Source: Eledone cirrhosa
Lineage: Eukaryota
DNA: 64,000 nt
Direction: 5' to 3'
NCBI GenBank assembly: GCA_964016885.1
Contig: OZ024747.1
Coordinates: 78,740,001-78,804,000, forward strand
Positions 37,881-55,603 of this stretch are shown piece by piece. A program made the translations under genes and the position numbers. The notes beneath the pieces were generated by a model. That model saw nothing but the letters and a program-made list of their open reading frames with translations, had not been told where the DNA came from and ran no database searches. How positions within the stretch are numbered: position 1 is the first letter of the stretch; the number at the start of each line of letters is the position of its first letter.

Positions 37881-39069
37881 CACTAATATATCAACCTGAT
37901 TATAATAATAATGATTTCTAATAAAGATAGAAATTCAGATATTTAGGGGAGAAGTTAGTCAATTAGATGATTGGTACTTTATTTTATCAATCCCAGAAGG
38001 AAGAAAGATATGGCTGACCTTGGCAAAGGGAGGCAAACAAAGAACAGAAATGCAGAGAACCATATGTAATTACAATTTGATATGGCATGAAAAAAATATA
38101 AGATCAAACACAAACTTAAAATAGCTATAATTACTGGTGGTGGTGGTAGTGTTGGTGGTGGTGGTGGTGGTAGTGTTGGTGGTGGTGGTGATAGTGGTGG
38201 TGGTGGTGATAGTGGTGGTTGTGGTGGTGGTGGTGATGGTGGTTTGTATAGATGAGGTACAAAGTTGATTTTGTAGATGGAGAAAGTTTTATTGATTTAA
38301 TTAACCCAGTGTATTTCAAGCACTTATTAATTTATTTTTTTTACTTCCTAAAGAGAGGATGTCAGAATATGATGGGTCAGGCTTCTGCCTGATACTGGTA
38401 CCATATAACCCAATGCTCCATGGTCTGGTGAGGCGGAACCCCAGCTGCACAAGAAACAAAAGCTGTTAAAAAGGTCAGAAGAACTCCTCATCCACCCCAG
38501 CTGTGGGTTACATAGCTTCACTAACCCTGGCCAAGTATGGTAACTATGGCTACAATGCCAACATGACCAAAACCAAAGAGAAACCAATGGGGATCAACCA
38601 GGGAGGAGTTCCTCCAACAGAAGAAGGGATTGGACTAGAAAGAAAGGAAGTCAACTGTAGTGGAAATTGAAATTAAAAGAAAAGGAAAATATAAGTGAAA
38701 TATAAACTACTTAACTATTGTGTTGTTACTACTACTACTACTATCACCACCACTACTACCTACTTTTATATATATTTACTAGACCACCTGTGGCAGACCA
38801 GTCAAATCAGTGTAAAAAAGGAGATTTACTGCAGCTAAAGTGTAGTTGTTTATATCAGCAACATCAATAACATTGAAATATTAATATAAACAATTTCAAA
38901 ATTAAAACAAAACTATCAAAACAAACTGAAAGCAAGTTTTAAATAATGGGAATTCTATAAAATCTGACAGTCACAGTGGCAAACACTGTACAGGTACCAG
39001 AGATCAGGTACCTTGTGGTTGATAATCCCAACAGTCGCAAACACTGTACAGGTAGCTGGGATCAGGTAC

Positions 39070-46991: not shown

Positions 46992-48618
46992 CATCATCAT
47001 CATCATCATCAGGTTTAGCGTCCGTGTTCCACGCTTGCATGGGTTTGGACGGGGGTTTTCCCACTTGAGGCAAGAGTGGTTGTCTTGCTCGCATAGGACT
47101 GTCTGGCGGGTTTTCTACAGTTGGATGCCCTTCCTAACACCAACCACATTTACAGTGTGGGGCTGGGAGGTTTTTACCGTGTTGCCTACACGGCCACATT
47201 ACAGCGTGGACTGTCTGGCGGGTTTTCTACAGCTGGATGCCCTTCCTAACACCAACCACATTTACAGTGTGGGGCTGGGAGGTTTTTACCGTGTTGCCTA
47301 CACGGCCACATTTACAGCGTGGACTGTGTGTTTTTTGTCGTGACACCGACACGATCTCATTTGTTTCGGCCTGGATGTTGTGGGACCAACATAACTTTAC
47401 ATTGAAAGGGGCGGTGTGGGTGGGGTGGAGGTGGTGGGACGGGGGTGTGTTTTGATAGAGGTGCCTACTGACTGTAGTAGGTTTTTACTTTGTATTTAGG
47501 TAAGGCGGGTCTTCTCTATTACTGAGTACCGCCAAAGGTCTCGGTCCAGTGACATTGTCTTGGAGAGGTGTAAGCGTGTGAGGTCGGAATTTATCAGCTC
47601 GTCCCATGTTTTTCTGGGTCTGCCTACTCCGTGGCTACCGTCTATCTTTATTGCCCTGCACTTTGTTATACAGCTGTCGTCTTTCATGCGCATCACGTGA
47701 CCGTACCAACGTAGCCTTCTCTCGAGTAAACAACATCTGATCCCTCTTATTTCTAATTTTTTCCTTAGTTCGTTTATGCTTTGCCGTTCACGTATATTAC
47801 TATTGCACATCCAGCGGAGCATGCAAGCTTCGTTCCTCTCTAGTCTGCGTATATCCTCTGCACACAATGCCCAGGTCTCACTGCCATGCAGCATTGCTGT
47901 TCGTATGCAGGCATCGTATAACCTGCCTTTCATTTTTAGGGAGAACCCTCTAGCGGCTAATAGTGGTATAAGCTCTCTGAACTTTTTCCATCCAGTTCTG
48001 ACTCTAGCTACTGTACTTTCAGAGCACCCTCCCCCACTGCTGATTTTGTCACCCAGATAACGGAAGCTGTCCACTATTTCTATAGAACCCTCTGCGCAGT
48101 TGAAGGAGCTAGTATTTTGTGGCCACTTGCTGCTACTTATTGCACCAGAGCACCGGCCACATGTAAAATCTATGTTCTTAGTTAGCTTACCTGTGATCCC
48201 ACTACATCTTTTATGCACCCATACTTTGCATTTGGGACATAAAATGGAGTTTCTACCTACGCCTTTCCTACACACTGAGCATGGCCATTTCCCCGATGGG
48301 ACCGCCGCCTTATTTTCTTTCCTACAAACTAGAACTTTAGTCTTAGCCAGGTTAATTTTAAGGTAGTCTTAGCCAGGTTAATTTTAAGGCCTTTTGATTC
48401 TAGGCCGTGCTTCCACGTTTGGAATTTCTTCTCTAGTTCGGTCATTGATTCAGCTATGAGCGTTAGATCATCTGCGTATAGGAGTTCCCATGGGCAGCCG
48501 GTCTTGAACTCCTCTGTTATAGCCTGAAGGGCAATAATAAATAGTAGGGGGCTAAGTACAGAGCCCTGATGGACACCAACTTTTACGCTAAACTCTTCAC
48601 TATATTCGTTGTTAATTC
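46990..48618 (-). mobile_element. 5'-truncated young RTE-clade LINE with (GAT)n tail
   Basis: RT motifs [20 protein letters not shown] and FRYLG, C-terminal RRLRWYGHVMR and GRPRKTW; stop at 47496. The 3' UTR has a 112-bp tandem duplication (47096-47320). Confidence 0.95.
47496..48618 (-). pseudogene. Partial RTE reverse transcriptase ORF, frameshifted by a 26-bp tandem duplication
   Basis: tagtcttagccaggttaattttaagg occurs twice at 48338-48389 and splits the ORF, which is otherwise open. Confidence 0.9.
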
Positions 48619-48640
48619 TATATATATATATATATATATA

Positions 48641-48674
<34 letters not shown>

Positions 48675-48818
48675 TATATGCATATATATATATATATATA
48701 TATATGCATATATGCATATATATATATATATATATATATATGCATATATATATATATATATATATATGCATATATATATATATATATATATATGCATATA
48801 TATATATATATATATATA

Positions 48819-48912
<94 letters not shown>

Positions 48913-48962
48913 TATATATATATATATATATATATGCATATATATATATATATATATATATA

Positions 48963-48996
<34 letters not shown>

Positions 48997-49048
48997 TATA
49001 TATATATATATATATATATATGCATATATATATATATATATATATATA

Positions 49049-49104
<56 letters not shown>

Positions 49105-49128
49105 TATATATATATATATATATATATA

Positions 49129-49184
<56 letters not shown>

Positions 49185-49398
49185 TATATATATATATATA
49201 TATATATATGCATATATATATATATATATGTATATATGCATATATATATATATATATATATATATGCATATATATATATATATATATATGTATATATGCA
49301 TATATATATATATATATATGTATATATGCATATATATATATATATATATATATATGCATATATATATATATGCATATATATATATATATATATATATA

Positions 49399-49465
<67 letters not shown>

Positions 49466-49468
49466 GCA

Positions 49469-49781
<313 letters not shown>

Positions 49782-49795
49782 GTATATATATGTAA

Positions 49796-50478
<683 letters not shown>

Positions 50479-50502
50479 TATATGTGTATATATATATATA
50501 TA

Positions 50503-50535
<33 letters not shown>

Positions 50536-50554
50536 GTGTATATATATATATATA

Positions 50555-50585
<31 letters not shown>

Positions 50586-50604
50586 GTGTATATATATATA
50601 TATA

Positions 50605-50663
<59 letters not shown>

Positions 50664-50706
50664 GTGTATATATATATATATATATATGTGTATATATATA
50701 TATATA

Positions 50707-50873
<167 letters not shown>

Positions 50874-50892
50874 GTATGTATATATATATATG

Positions 50893-50957
<65 letters not shown>

Positions 50958-51107
50958 ATATATATGCATATATATATACATATATATACATATATATATA
51001 TATGCATATATATATACATATATATACATATACATATATATATACATACATATATATATACATATATACATATACATATACACATATATATATATACATA
51101 TATATAT

Positions 51108-51744
51108 GGTGGCTGCCAACTCGTTTTCGAGTACGGCCACTACTTTACATCCATGTAGGATAACCCCTACTGAAGCGCTGAACGAGTGTGACTTTTTAGT
51201 CCAGCCAGCGACTTGAAACCTCTGGTACAAACACTACACCTGTGACAATTATTGACACATAGTGCTAGGCCCATGATAGGACAATTATTGACACATAGTG
51301 CTGGGCCCATGTGAGGACAAGTGCAGAGAGATCTCCAGATATAAAGCAATGCCTGTGCCGTGAAGCTTTTATAGTGAGCAAAGGCACTGCACAAAGCCAG
51401 TCCCACTCTCTTAACCAAGATGCTATTTACCAAAAAGAAGAACAAGTCAACATCATTGGATACCATCAGGGTTGCAGGTGTTATATCAGAGTTTTCCTTC
51501 TCCTAGAATTCTGCCTTGACTAAGGCTAAAGGGGTCATCTCTCCCGGTGATTTTGGATGGCCATTGACTCTTAAGAGCTCCTTTGCCCTTTGACAGGTTT
51601 TGTTTTTAGTCCTGCAGGATGTCCAAAGTCACCCTCCTCACCAAGAAACCTTGGTGGGGTTGCCAGTTTAGTCGCCAACGACCCGACCATGAGACAGGTT
51701 GTACTGGGATACATGTTACCAGTAGCACCAACTGGTGACCTGAC
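51108..51744 (-). mobile_element. Non-autonomous bipartite RTE derivative (5' UTR fused to 3' end)
   Basis: The 5' part has an RTE-5'UTR-like ctaggagaaggaaaactctga. The 3' part encodes a zinc-finger-like [20 protein letters not shown] ending in a stop, then a short 3' UTR ending ggcagccacc(ta)n. No EN or RT is present. A 36-bp tandem duplication (51244-51311) lies near the junction. Confidence 0.7.
51663..51740 (-). ncRNA. HDV-like ribozyme fold (probably decayed)
   Basis: GGUCA(P1); accagu-uggugcu-acuggu J1/2 hairpin; CCAGU(P2); aca aCC uguc uca; UGGUC(P1'); GG(P1.1); gUCG-uugg-CGA(P4); CUAA(J4/2); ACUGG(P2'). P3 is mismatched. Confidence 0.62.
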
Positions 51745-52062
51745 ATATATATATACATATATATATACATATATATATATACATATATATATACATATAC
51801 ATATATACATATACATATATACATATATATATACATATATATATACATATATACATATATATATATACATATATATATACATACATACATATACATATAC
51901 ATATATATATACATATACATATATATATACATATACATATATATATACATATACATATATATATATACATATATATATACATATACATATATATATATAC
52001 ATATATATATATACATATACATATATATATACATATATATATACATATATATATACATATAC

Positions 52063-52094
<32 letters not shown>

Positions 52095-52156
52095 ATATAT
52101 ACATATACATATATACATATATATATATACATATATATATACATATATATATATAC

Positions 52157-52201
<45 letters not shown>

Positions 52202-52216
52202 CATATATATATATAC

Positions 52217-52359
<143 letters not shown>

Positions 52360-52644
52360 CATATATATATATACATATATATATATACATATATATATAT
52401 ACATATATATATACATATATATATATACATATATATATATACATATATATATATACATATATATATATACATATATATATATACATATATATATACATAT
52501 ATATATATACATATATATATACATATATAAATATACATATATATATACATATATATATATACATATATATATACATATATAAATATACATATATATATAT
52601 ACATATATATATATACATATATATATATACATATATATATATAC

Positions 52645-52689
<45 letters not shown>

Positions 52690-52706
52690 CACATATATAT
52701 ATATAC

Positions 52707-52753
<47 letters not shown>

Positions 52754-52896
52754 CATATATATATATACATATATATATATATACATATATATATATACAT
52801 ATATATATATACATATATATATATACATATATATATATACATATATATATATACATATATATATATACATATATATATATACATATATATATATAC

Positions 52897-52950
<54 letters not shown>

Positions 52951-52974
52951 ATATACATATACATATATATATAC

Positions 52975-53006
<32 letters not shown>

Positions 53007-53087
53007 ATATACATATACATATATATATACATATATATATACATATATATATACATATATATATACATATATATATATATATACACA

Positions 53088-53119
<32 letters not shown>

Positions 53120-53292
53120 CATATATATATATACATATACATATATATATATACATATACATATATATATATACATATACATATATATATATACATATAC
53201 ATATATATACATATACATATATATATATACATATACATATATATACATATACATATATATATATATACATATACATATACATATATATATAC

Positions 53293-53323
<31 letters not shown>

Positions 53324-53458
53324 CATATATATATACATATATATATATATATACATATATACATATACATATACATATATATATACATATATATATATAT
53401 ATACATATATATACACATATATATATATACATATATATACACATATATATATATATAC

Positions 53459-53501
<43 letters not shown>

Positions 53502-53686
53502 TATACACATATATATATATATATACATATATATACACATATATATATATATACATATATATACACATATATATATATATATACATATATATACACATAT
53601 ATATATATATATACATATATATACACATATATACATATATATATATACATATATATATATACATATATATATACATATATATATAC

Positions 53687-53721
<35 letters not shown>

Positions 53722-53732
53722 CATATATATAC

Positions 53733-53764
<32 letters not shown>

Positions 53765-53857
53765 ATACATATACATATATATATACATATACATATATAT
53801 ATACATATATATATATACATATACATATATATATACATATATATATATACATATACA

Positions 53858-53914
<57 letters not shown>

Positions 53915-54114
53915 CGACAAATTCCTCCAAGTAATCCCGGACAAACCACCCACACCCGGATATGTCTCCGCAAACAGTAATTCTCTTCTCGAATGGGCCA
54001 TGGTGCCCAAATCCTGAATTGAAAGACTTCGCCAGGTGGTGCTATTAAGTTAGACATGGCCTGGGCCAATACTGGCCAAAACATTTCAAAGTTATTCAAA
54101 GTTATTCAAAGTTA
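53915..54114 (+). mobile_element. 3' end of a CR1/L2-like LINE
   Basis: Frame [33 protein letters not shown] (stop 54015-54017), 3' stem-loop ggcca-atac-tggcc, and tail (TTCAAAGTTA)3. Confidence 0.7.
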
Positions 54115-54227
54115 TATATATATATATACATATATATATATGTATATATATATACATACATATATATATATGTATATATATATACATATATATATATATA
54201 TGCATATATATATATATATATACATAT

Positions 54228-54260
<33 letters not shown>

Positions 54261-54263
54261 TAC

Positions 54264-54313
<50 letters not shown>

Positions 54314-54328
54314 GTATATACATATATA

Positions 54329-54360
<32 letters not shown>

Positions 54361-54375
54361 CATATATATACATAC

Positions 54376-54451
<76 letters not shown>

Positions 54452-54479
54452 GTATACATATATATATATATATATATAC

Positions 54480-54537
<58 letters not shown>

Positions 54538-54703
54538 ATACATACATACATACATACATATATATATATATACATATATATACATACATATATATATATA
54601 TACATATATATACATACATATATATACATATATATATATACATATATATACATACATATATATACATATATATATATACATATATATACATATATATATA
54701 TAC

Positions 54704-54740
<37 letters not shown>

Positions 54741-55076
54741 CATATATATATATACATATATATACATATATATATATACATATATATACATATATATATA
54801 TACATATATATACATATATATATATACATATATATACATATATATATATACATATATATACATATATATATATACATATATATATATACATATATATACA
54901 TATATATATATACATATATATACATATATATACATATATATATATACATATATATATATACATATATATACATATATATACATATATATATATATACATA
55001 TATATATATACATATATATATATATATGCATATATATATATATATATGCATATATATATATGCATATATATATATA

Positions 55077-55603
55077 GGCAGACCTAGAAAAACCTGGGAC
55101 GAGCTGATAAACTCCGACATCACACACTTACACCTCTCCAAGACAATGTCACTGGACCGAGACCTTTGGCGGTACTCAGTAACAGAGAAGACCCGCCTTA
55201 CCTAAATATATAGTAAAACCTACTCCAGCCAGTAGGCATCTCTAACAAAATACACCCCGTCCCACCACCACCACCCCCACCCGATCCACACCACCCCGTT
55301 CTATGTAAAGTTATGTTGGTGCCGCGCCATCGAGGCCGAAACAAATGAGATCGTGTAGGTGTCACGACAAAAAAACACACAGTCCACGCTGTAATGTGGC
55401 CGTGTAGGCAACACGGTAAAAACCTCCCAGACCCACACTGTAAATGTGGTTGGTGTTAGGAAGGGCATCCAACTGTAGAAAACCTGCCAGACAGTCCTAT
55501 GCGAGCAAGACAATCACTCTTGCCTCAAGTGGGACTACCCCCGTCCAAACCCATGCAAGCGTGGAACACGGACGTTAAACGTTGATGATGATGATGATGA
55601 TGA
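55077..55603 (+). mobile_element. Second, severely 5'-truncated copy of the RTE, inverted relative to 46990-48618
   Basis: [42 protein letters not shown], the same 3' UTR without the 112-bp duplication, and a (gat)n tail. Confidence 0.95.

What the first reader, a model, noticed from the sequence alone, without database searches (positions are those of the whole stretch)
51108..51744. Ribozyme-headed, (TA)n-embedded, non-autonomous RTE derivative
Seen in sequence: a 637-bp island on the minus strand whose first ~80 nt fold with HDV-like topology (P1, J1/2 hairpin, P2, P1.1 CC/GG, P4, candidate catalytic C in CUAA). The predicted cleavage G (51740) is only 4 nt from the island edge. An RTE-type 5' UTR follows and joins directly to a C-terminal zinc-finger-like coding stub and 3' UTR, with no EN or RT. 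Established: RTE retrotransposons can carry 5' HDV-like ribozymes, and 5'+3' bipartite RTE derivatives such as Bov-A exist. Inference: this could be a SINE-like family with no Pol III head that cuts itself out of read-through transcripts and borrows an RTE RT. It may be undescribed in cephalopods. P3 is mismatched, so this copy may be inactive.
Basis: partly seen in the sequence, partly recalled or inferred. Interest (0 to 1): 0.72.

Follow-up and report, generated by a model that had tools for sequence, protein, structure and literature searches.

The report
Flavivirus-type nuclease block heads RTE retrotransposons
A jumping element with over 18,000 copies in this animal genome begins not with the proposed self-cutting RNA but with a sequence whose conserved base pairing matches the knot that flaviviruses use to stall the cell's RNA-chewing enzyme, so the host enzyme likely trims and protects the element's front end, a role not yet tested and one for which I found no report outside viruses.

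Summary
The 637-bp island is real: a young copy of a non-coding RTE derivative with at least 18,220 copies in TA/TATG repeats. The HDV ribozyme reading fails: P3 does not pair, P1/P2 do not covary, and 8,625 copies start at 51744 against 131 at the proposed cut site. Instead, the first 57 nt fit a flavivirus subclass 1a exoribonuclease-resistant RNA (xrRNA): three-way junction, junction C, U-A-U triple positions, two pseudoknots, downstream hairpin. The fold heads two distant autonomous RTE families here and RTEs in metagenome contigs. Across 17 heads 92% of cells pair, and all five PK2 pairs, never part of a search pattern, covary. A model built without viral rows finds a true flavivirus xrRNA (E 5e-6). 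Extra bases at insertion junctions end where Xrn1 would halt. Likely mechanism: host 5'-3' exonuclease trims read-through RNA to the knot, defining and shielding the 5' end. Resistance is untested, no RNA reads were available, and many RTEs lack the head. The scan noted what seems to be this family before (e1-9517817), not the xrRNA reading. A 2025 paper states no such structure is known in cellular RNAs.

The parts
51108..51744 (-). Whole non-autonomous RTE-derived element (family A), young subfamily
51688..51744 (-). Subclass 1a xrRNA-like head: G-U leader, P1, P2, junction C, P3, CA, P1', PK2
51738..51742 (-). P1 5' strand (pairs with 51695-51699); junction pair U-A here, C-G in family D and in flaviviruses
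51726..51737 (-).
51725..51725 (-). Single C between P2 and P3, the subclass 1a discriminator
   Evidence: sequence; PMC8374639, PMC7527734
51702..51724 (-). P3 (6 bp) and loop L3; A 51723 and U 51703 are the predicted triple partners of U 51743; L3 CAUG at 51712-51715 is the 5' strand of PK2
51700..51701 (-). CA junction; C predicted to pair with G 51744 (PK1)
51688..51691 (-). PK2 3' strand, 3 nt after P1'
51671..51687 (-).
   Evidence: sequence; covariation not counted
51745..51747 (-). Three flank bases (TAT) up to the predicted exonuclease halt, 5 nt before P1; in this copy not separable from the repeat
   Evidence: PMC5760640, PMC13161572
51548..51744 (-). Head module shared with the 5' UTR of an autonomous RTE family (L034 type, 90% with two gaps) and with families B-D
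51346..51553 (-). Middle piece homologous (71-74%) to the 5' UTR of a second, intact RTE (L456/L457)
51279..51306 (-). 28-nt duplication marking the young subfamily (present in 2 of 26 unbiased copies that span it)
51179..51244 (-). C2H2 zinc-finger coding stub, homologous to the last finger of the L457 ORF
51110..51139 (-). 3' terminus, 87% identical to the 3' end of the intact RTE L457/L458 (likely mobilising partner)
48619..55055 (.). (TA/TG/CA)n array that holds the insertion

Best explanation
The island is a copy of an abundant non-coding RTE-derived retroposon whose first 57 nucleotides carry the conserved, covarying base pairs of a flavivirus subclass 1a exoribonuclease-resistant RNA, which likely stalls the host 5'-to-3' exonuclease so that a longer read-through transcript would be trimmed to a defined, protected 5' end before an intact RTE's enzyme likely copies it into TA-rich repeats. 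Shown: family, copy number, fixed start, target-site duplications, 5' truncations, shared 3' end with an intact RTE, covariation of P1, P2, P3 and PK2, likeness to flavivirus xrRNAs, presence on distant autonomous RTEs. Inferred: the ring-shaped 3D fold and base triple, nuclease resistance, read-through transcription with decapping or cleavage upstream, which enzyme (Xrn1 or Xrn2) trims, and which RTE supplies the protein. The head acts as a movable module: family A joins the head of one RTE lineage to the 5' UTR middle and 3' end of another whose intact form lacks the head, as a tRNA head does in a SINE.
For: Best Rfam match of the island by score is Flavivirus_SLIV, 24.5 bits; a true flavivirus copy scores 27.3 bits on that model. 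My class 1a descriptor hits once in the 64-kb window, at 51744, and in 3 of 2000 shuffles of the island. A pattern predicting a U-A to C-G swap in P1 found 16 related matches, 0 in the control. 28 of 35 metagenome pattern hits fit the full descriptor and 7 of 35 lie upstream of an RTE EN/RT frame on the same strand. On 17 heads without viral rows: 92.2% of cells paired, 12 of 23 pairs changed on both sides, PK2 5 of 5, 0 of 500 shuffles as high. PK2 was in no search pattern; own partners give 59 Watson-Crick pairs against 46.9 +/- 3.4 for permuted partners among 16 representatives, p about 0.001. A covariance model from those 17 heads finds the first xrRNA of a flavivirus 3' UTR at 33.3 bits, E 5e-6. 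One core pattern gives 6 stretches in 2.9 million viral contigs: 4 flavivirus 3' UTRs and 2 capsid-bearing virus-type contigs. Heads were also found without using the core: family C through a downstream anchor, autonomous families through 5' UTR DNA and through protein (3 of 12 stretches). 8,625 copies start at the first G, 131 at the fifth base. TTAT precedes 13 of the 30 youngest copies against 14 of 994 in the flanks; TAT is the commonest extra between duplication and element (9 of 44, plus 2 TTAT), placing the RNA end 5 nt before P1, where mosquito-borne flavivirus xrRNAs halt Xrn1 (5-6 nt, PMC5760640).
Against: No resistance assay and no RNA 5'-end data. The invariant core letters in the homologue set were partly forced by my patterns, and related rows inflate the shuffle tests. 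The two junction-closing pairs are mostly U-A (P1 14 of 17, P3 17 of 17) whereas 4 of 4 flavivirus examples have C-G and PMC13161572 reports C-G there. The first PK1 pair depends on the flank and is kept in 7 of 17. The three-way junction is the nested minimum-energy fold of the 56-nt head but not of a 93-nt or 88-nt context, and z-scores are weak (-0.73; the flavivirus example -0.85). Rfam scores are far below the 54.5-bit cut-off, and none of 11 metagenome or virus-contig loci matched that family at E up to 2. 20 of 44 copies show no extra bases and 5 of 18 autonomous copies have a G before the head, which a capped transcript could explain. None of 72 protein-selected RTE-like loci has the head (descriptor; model on 53 of 72), though only about 11 include the 5' region; 7 of the 17 aligned heads have no RTE frame on their contig.
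Confidence: 0.6

Rival explanations
1. The head is a true xrRNA but only protects: the RNA is made capped from an internal Pol II promoter starting at or just before the first G, and the knot saves it after decapping.
For: An extra G precedes 5 of 18 full-length autonomous copies and several family C copies; that reverse transcriptases copy a cap as G is recalled, not from a call. The 194-nt region behind the knot is conserved across families and could hold a promoter; L1Tc/NARTc combine promoter and ribozyme in one 5' end (PMC3383444, listing only). 20 of 44 copies have no extra base.
Against: The extra TAT in young family A copies lies outside the element shared by all families and ends at the expected halt; the extra letters differ between families, as expected for donor flank.
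Confidence: 0.22
2. The fold is real but serves another job, such as a handle for the RTE protein or the ribosome, or self-cleavage by an undescribed chemistry; likeness to xrRNA is structural only.
For: Junction pairs are weaker than in flaviviruses; a second, diverged unit sits inside the autonomous 5' UTR where no end is formed; 5' HDV folds of retrotransposons are credited with several roles (PMC6765202, PMC12222951, passages).
Against: All subclass 1a signature positions and spacings are kept together; non-coding families that need no translation keep it; it sits at the exact 5' boundary in most compared paralogues.
Confidence: 0.12
3. The first reader's HDV-like ribozyme cleaving at G 51740 (or a variant HDV register).
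For: RTEs with 5' HDV-like ribozymes are reported (PMC5786205 citing Ruminski 2011); CUAA, GG, a 5-bp P2 and a hairpin are present in this copy and in family B1.
Against: P3 fails; P1+P3 46.7% paired, no compensatory change; P2 complete in 2 of 39 heads, 19 of 39 lack CUAA within 60 nt; copies start 4 nt upstream of the cut, 8,625 against 131; no HDV-type Rfam hit. My HDV descriptor had no positive control.
Confidence: 0.04
4. Chance resemblance; the 5' end is an ordinary conserved UTR.
For: Rfam E 0.075 and weak folding z-scores.
Against: Covariation in helices that were not searched for; descriptor hit rate 3 of 2000 shuffles; 0 control matches.
Confidence: 0.02

Closest known systems
Subclass 1a exoribonuclease-resistant RNAs of mosquito-borne flaviviruses (PMC8374639, PMC7527734, PMC5760640; Rfam RF01415)
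   Same: Three-way junction P1/P2/P3, 5-bp P1 of nearly the same sequence, one C between P2 and P3, U-A-U triple positions, CA junction for PK1, PK2 from L3 to just after P1', following hairpin, variable P2, similar spacing.
   Different: Lies at the 5' terminus of a genomic retroelement instead of a viral 3' UTR; junction pairs mostly U-A; first PK1 base comes from the flank; resistance and 3D ring untested.
Bipartite ORF-less non-autonomous RTE elements (Bov-A, RTESINE1/2, WALLSI3, RTE-N2_Lch; Kojima 2018, PMC5786205)
   Same: RTE 5' UTR piece joined to an RTE 3' end, no ORF, no Pol III head, high copy, target-site duplications, 5' truncations.
   Different: Three pieces from two RTE lineages (head swap); head is xrRNA-like, not an HDV ribozyme; a zinc-finger coding stub is kept.
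HDV-ribozyme-headed non-LTR elements (R2, L1Tc/NARTc, some RTE; PMC6765202, PMC12222951, PMC5786205)
   Same: A compact knotted RNA marks the 5' end and is thought to release the element from a longer transcript and to resist exonucleases.
   Different: No HDV core here; the end would be made by a host nuclease stopping, not by self-cleavage.

Membership tests
Subclass 1a xrRNA | Three-way junction of P1, P2, P3 | tested here: met
   P1 100%, P2 94%, P3 97% of cells paired with compensatory changes in each; nested minimum-energy fold of the 56-nt head, though not in longer context
Subclass 1a xrRNA | Single C between P2 and P3 | tested here: met
   C 51725; 17 of 17 rows, partly forced by the pattern; also in family C found without it
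Subclass 1a xrRNA | U-A-U base triple (leader U with second pair of P3) | tested here: inconclusive
   The three letters are in place in the window and 17 of 17 rows; the triple itself cannot be seen and invariant letters give no covariation
Subclass 1a xrRNA | PK1 of at most two pairs, second a G-C | tested here: met
   G-C 17 of 17; first pair U-A only 7 of 17
Subclass 1a xrRNA | PK2 between L3 and the strand after P1 (3-8 bp) | tested here: met
   4 bp in the window; 5 of 5 columns change on both sides; permutation p about 0.001
Subclass 1a xrRNA | C-G pairs closing the junction (PMC13161572) | tested here: not met
   U-A at P1 in 14 of 17 and at P3 in 17 of 17; described as conserved, not as required
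Subclass 1a xrRNA | Halt 5-6 nt before P1 | tested here: inconclusive
   Indirect: extra TAT at junctions puts the copied end 5 nt before P1 in 9 of 44 copies; 20 of 44 have no extra
Subclass 1a xrRNA | Fold-dependent resistance to Xrn1; 15-16-nt ring around the 5' end | not testable with these tools
   needs assay and structure
HDV-like ribozyme | P3 of 3 bp with L3 and P1.1 | tested here: not met
   2 of 3 P3 pairs mismatched; 33% paired across heads
HDV-like ribozyme | Conserved P1 and P2 with covariation | tested here: not met
   P1 5 bp, 56% paired, no compensatory change; P2 complete in 2 of 39
HDV-like ribozyme | Element 5' end at first nucleotide of P1 (PMC4908430) | tested here: not met
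   131 copies start there, 8,625 start 4 nt upstream
HDV-like ribozyme | Mg-dependent self-cleavage | not testable with these tools
   bench assay
Non-autonomous bipartite RTE element | RTE 5' UTR sequence plus RTE 3' end, no ORF | tested here: met
   matches to L034, L457; Pfam EN and RT on partners
Non-autonomous bipartite RTE element | Amplified as a unit by target-primed reverse transcription | tested here: met
   29 of 30 unbiased copies share the 3' end, 17 of 30 are 5'-truncated; duplications of 8-16 bp in informative flanks
Pol III SINE | tRNA, 5S or 7SL head | tested here: not met
   no tRNA, no such Rfam match

The most novel reading that the evidence does not exclude
Several lineages of RTE retrotransposons carry authentic flavivirus-type xrRNAs as their 5' end, the first in cellular genomes; host Xrn1/Xrn2 is their 5'-end maturation enzyme, a third route beside internal promoters and ribozymes; the head is swapped between elements like a SINE head; and the fold shares ancestry with flavivirus and other RNA-virus xrRNAs through exchange between retroelements and viruses of aquatic invertebrates.
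Probability: 0.4. Interest if true: 0.95.

Novelty: categorically new. Interest (0 to 1): 0.86.

Why it matters
Both parts are known apart (bipartite RTE elements; viral xrRNAs), but the pairing is not: reviews pose cellular xrRNAs as an open question (PMC8374639) and a 2025 paper says none has been identified (PMC12081666). This gives dozens of natural, covarying candidates that a one-gel assay can test. If they resist Xrn1, it explains how promoter-less, ribozyme-less LINE derivatives keep a precise 5' end, opens the question of where flavivirus xrRNAs came from, and offers non-viral 5' stabilisers for retrotransposon-based gene insertion, where 5' stability limits efficiency (PMC12222951). 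It also warns that such heads are easily misread as broken HDV ribozymes.

Tried and rejected
Pol III head: none. One-off deletion: rejected. Rfam on 50000-53000 was swamped by TA-repeat matches. Rfam RF01415 over the own genome gave 3 sub-threshold matches, all heads of these families, and also rang in 7 of 14 control genomes. A loose pattern in viral contigs gave mostly chance matches: 4 of 80 loci fit the descriptor. A pattern for P3 variants in the own genome gave 161 matches; the listed ones are single mutants of known families, with no new compensated family. One search used a window-specific variant and found only 8 copies. Sequencing runs: no RNA holder listed; four contig runs were laid and cannot show RNA ends. 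RTE protein search in viral contigs found nothing. Homologous-protein search gave few names. The TSD script had an off-by-one end and was redone. Ruminski et al. 2011 is not held. Repbase and Dfam could not be searched; supplements of PMC13282606 and PMC5786205 were not read and may list this family.

Full report
Observation. The island lies at 51108-51744 on the minus strand inside a (TA/TG)n array. It has no EN or RT, no tRNA head and a C2H2 stub (Pfam E 0.0024). It is one copy of a large family: 40 of 40 scored matches are full length, and the 29 other fetched loci differ from it at 2-3 positions; a 24-nt 3' motif occurs 18,220 times, 0 in the control. Of the first 30 copies picked by that motif alone, 29 share the 3' end, 13 start at base 1 and 17 are 5'-truncated at bases 10-484. 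Informative flanks show 8-16-bp duplications beginning with AT. This is the signature of LINE-driven insertion. The window's copy belongs to a young subfamily with a 28-nt duplication found in 2 of 26 unbiased copies.

Anatomy. Bases 1-197 match the 5' UTR of an autonomous RTE family (L034, EN and RT by Pfam; 256 candidates); 18 of 30 fetched copies hold the complete head and start at the same G. Bases 192-399, 538-565 and 606-635 match a different, intact RTE (L457, 1,181-aa frame without stops, 71-87% identity) whose RT is 29% identical to that of L034 and which lacks the head. A third, zinc-finger-ended RTE family found by protein alone carries a variant head in 3 of 3 fetched copies (3 of 12 stretches in all). 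So family A is a head from one lineage on a deletion derivative of another, and the L457 type is the likely mobiliser. Other non-coding families with variant heads exist: B (308 exact matches), C and D.

The HDV reading fails. No HDV-type Rfam family matches. Across 16 aligned heads P1+P3 pair in 46.7% of cells with no compensatory change; P2 is complete in 2 of 39 heads and 19 of 39 lack CUAA (two heads at contig ends were dropped). HDV ribozymes cut at the first base of P1 (PMC4908430, passages), yet 8,625 copies begin at 51744 and 131 at 51740 after the same flank letters.

The xrRNA reading. The top-scoring Rfam match of the island is Flavivirus_SLIV (24.5 bits, E 0.075, cut-off 54.5); a genuine flavivirus copy scores 27.3 bits on it. 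Read that way, the head has each listed feature of subclass 1a (PMC8374639, parts 1-3 of 5; PMC7527734, passages): P1 51742-51738 with 51699-51695, P2 hairpin, one C at 51725, P3 of 6 bp, CA, PK2 of 4 bp three bases after P1', and a hairpin. A descriptor of this layout hits the 64-kb window once, at 51744, and 3 of 2000 shuffles. A predicted P1 swap was found (16 matches, 0 control). A tight pattern gave 35 metagenome loci; 28 fit the full descriptor, 7 lie about 600-950 nt upstream of an RTE EN/RT frame, one is a bacterial chance match. Among paralogous contigs homology mostly begins within 5 nt of the head's G; two groups extend further upstream. On 17 heads that I chose as non-redundant and non-viral (5 of them near this genome's families; 7 with no RTE frame on their contig), 92.2% of cells pair and 12 of 23 pairs change on both sides, 0 of 500 shuffles as high; slid controls give 27-45%. 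PK2 was never in a pattern: all five columns covary, and own partners beat permuted ones (59 against 46.9 +/- 3.4; p about 0.001; 16 representatives of 39). The fourth P3 pair is Watson-Crick in 14 of 16, in four types, against 25% across rows. A covariance model from the 17 heads finds the xrRNA behind a flavivirus NS5 frame at E 5e-6 in 408 kb, and a shared core pattern returns 6 stretches from the viral collection, four of them flavivirus 3' UTRs; side by side the spacings agree.

Mechanism. Mosquito-borne flavivirus xrRNAs halt Xrn1 5-6 nt before P1 and also block unrelated exonucleases (PMC5760640, passages); a designed one stops it two bases before PK1 (PMC13161572, passages). Here that predicts an RNA end at 51747, three bases outside the element. 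TTAT precedes 13 of the 30 youngest copies against 14 of 994 comparable places in their flanks, and TAT is the commonest extra between duplication and element (9 of 44, 2 more TTAT; 20 have none). I infer that a donor copy is read through from a host promoter, the RNA is decapped or cut upstream, the exonuclease stops at the knot, and the trimmed RNA is copied by an RTE protein bound to its 3' end; when the extra TAT anneals to the TA target it disappears into the duplication. Resistance, the ring, the enzyme and the transcription route are not shown.

Against. No RNA data. Core letters are partly forced by my patterns and rows are related. Junction pairs are mostly U-A where flaviviruses have C-G. 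In 88-93-nt contexts a nested-only fold prefers other pairings. An extra G before 5 of 18 autonomous copies may point to a capped start. The head is not general to RTEs: none in 72 protein-selected loci, about 11 of which include the 5' region, and none in 9 of 12 own-genome RTE stretches.

What is known. Bipartite RTE elements are well known, and their 5' ends are attributed to HDV-like ribozymes (PMC5786205, parts 1-3 of 5; PMC6765202, passages; Ruminski 2011 seen only as a citation). R2's 5' ribozyme is thought to give exonuclease resistance (PMC12222951, passages). xrRNAs are described only in viruses: PMC8374639 (2021) leaves eukaryotic ones open, PMC12081666 (2025, passage) says none is identified in cellular RNAs, PMC12397905 (passages) does not mention retrotransposons. 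Six searches listed no paper on xrRNAs in retrotransposons; subscription journals, Repbase and Dfam were not covered. An octopus repeat annotation lists 893 recently active unclassified SINE families and does not contain the word ribozyme (PMC13282606, passages; supplement unread), so the family itself may be catalogued. RTE target duplications are linked to 3' microsatellite-like ends (PMC6007223, abstract). Earlier scan notes describe what seems the same family and one reads a similar head as an HDV variant; no note holds the xrRNA-retrotransposon reading. I formed that reading before seeing them.

Verdict. The element class is known; the head is new. I put about 0.9 on the fold being the subclass 1a layout, 0.8 on its resisting Xrn1, and 0.6 on trimming setting the 5' end.

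Noticed in passing
L233:1150-1213 and 1497-1540 (same as L242), L421:1501-1544: Class 1a-like xrRNA folds in non-flavivirus, virus-type contigs whose upstream frames carry an S-domain coat protein (Pfam PF00729); two in tandem between ORFs in L233/L242, one after the coat frame in L421. Subclass 1a is described only from flaviviruses in the papers read.
   Followed up: partly
L034:8139-8179 (minus): A second, diverged xrRNA-like unit inside the autonomous RTE 5' UTR, about 250 nt after the first, with compensated P3 and a different PK2 but no clear P1; recalls tandem xrRNAs.
   Followed up: partly
L262:727-780 (minus): A complete fold with a 7-bp PK2 in an AT-rich contig between a protein-kinase frame and another frame, with no RTE frame nearby; may be a cellular, non-retroelement case.
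   Followed up: no
window 38374-38427 (+): Decayed family C head.
   Followed up: no
window 47496-48620 and 55080-55205: The 6.4-kb (TA)n array interrupts an RT-like LINE fragment, and a piece of that fragment's end recurs on the far side in the other orientation.
   Followed up: no
window 53900-54110: A second, unrelated island of about 200 bp inside the same (TA)n array; similar starts appear in other flanks (L005).
   Followed up: no
L075-L078 (G000:C8, about 18.06 Mb): The family C head amplified as a 103-104-bp tandem array of at least 10 units.
   Followed up: no
L236, L237, L245, L248, L255: Heads whose P2 begins with the same letters as P1 often carry an extra 5-nt repeat of their first bases, as if the cDNA end re-annealed and was copied twice.
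   Followed up: no
L029, L038, L040, L046, L279: Copies often sit in the (TATG)n tail of another copy, forming stacks.
   Followed up: no
L319-L390: 72 contigs of bacterial and archaeal genome bins encode animal-type LINE proteins, presumably host DNA in the bins.
   Followed up: no
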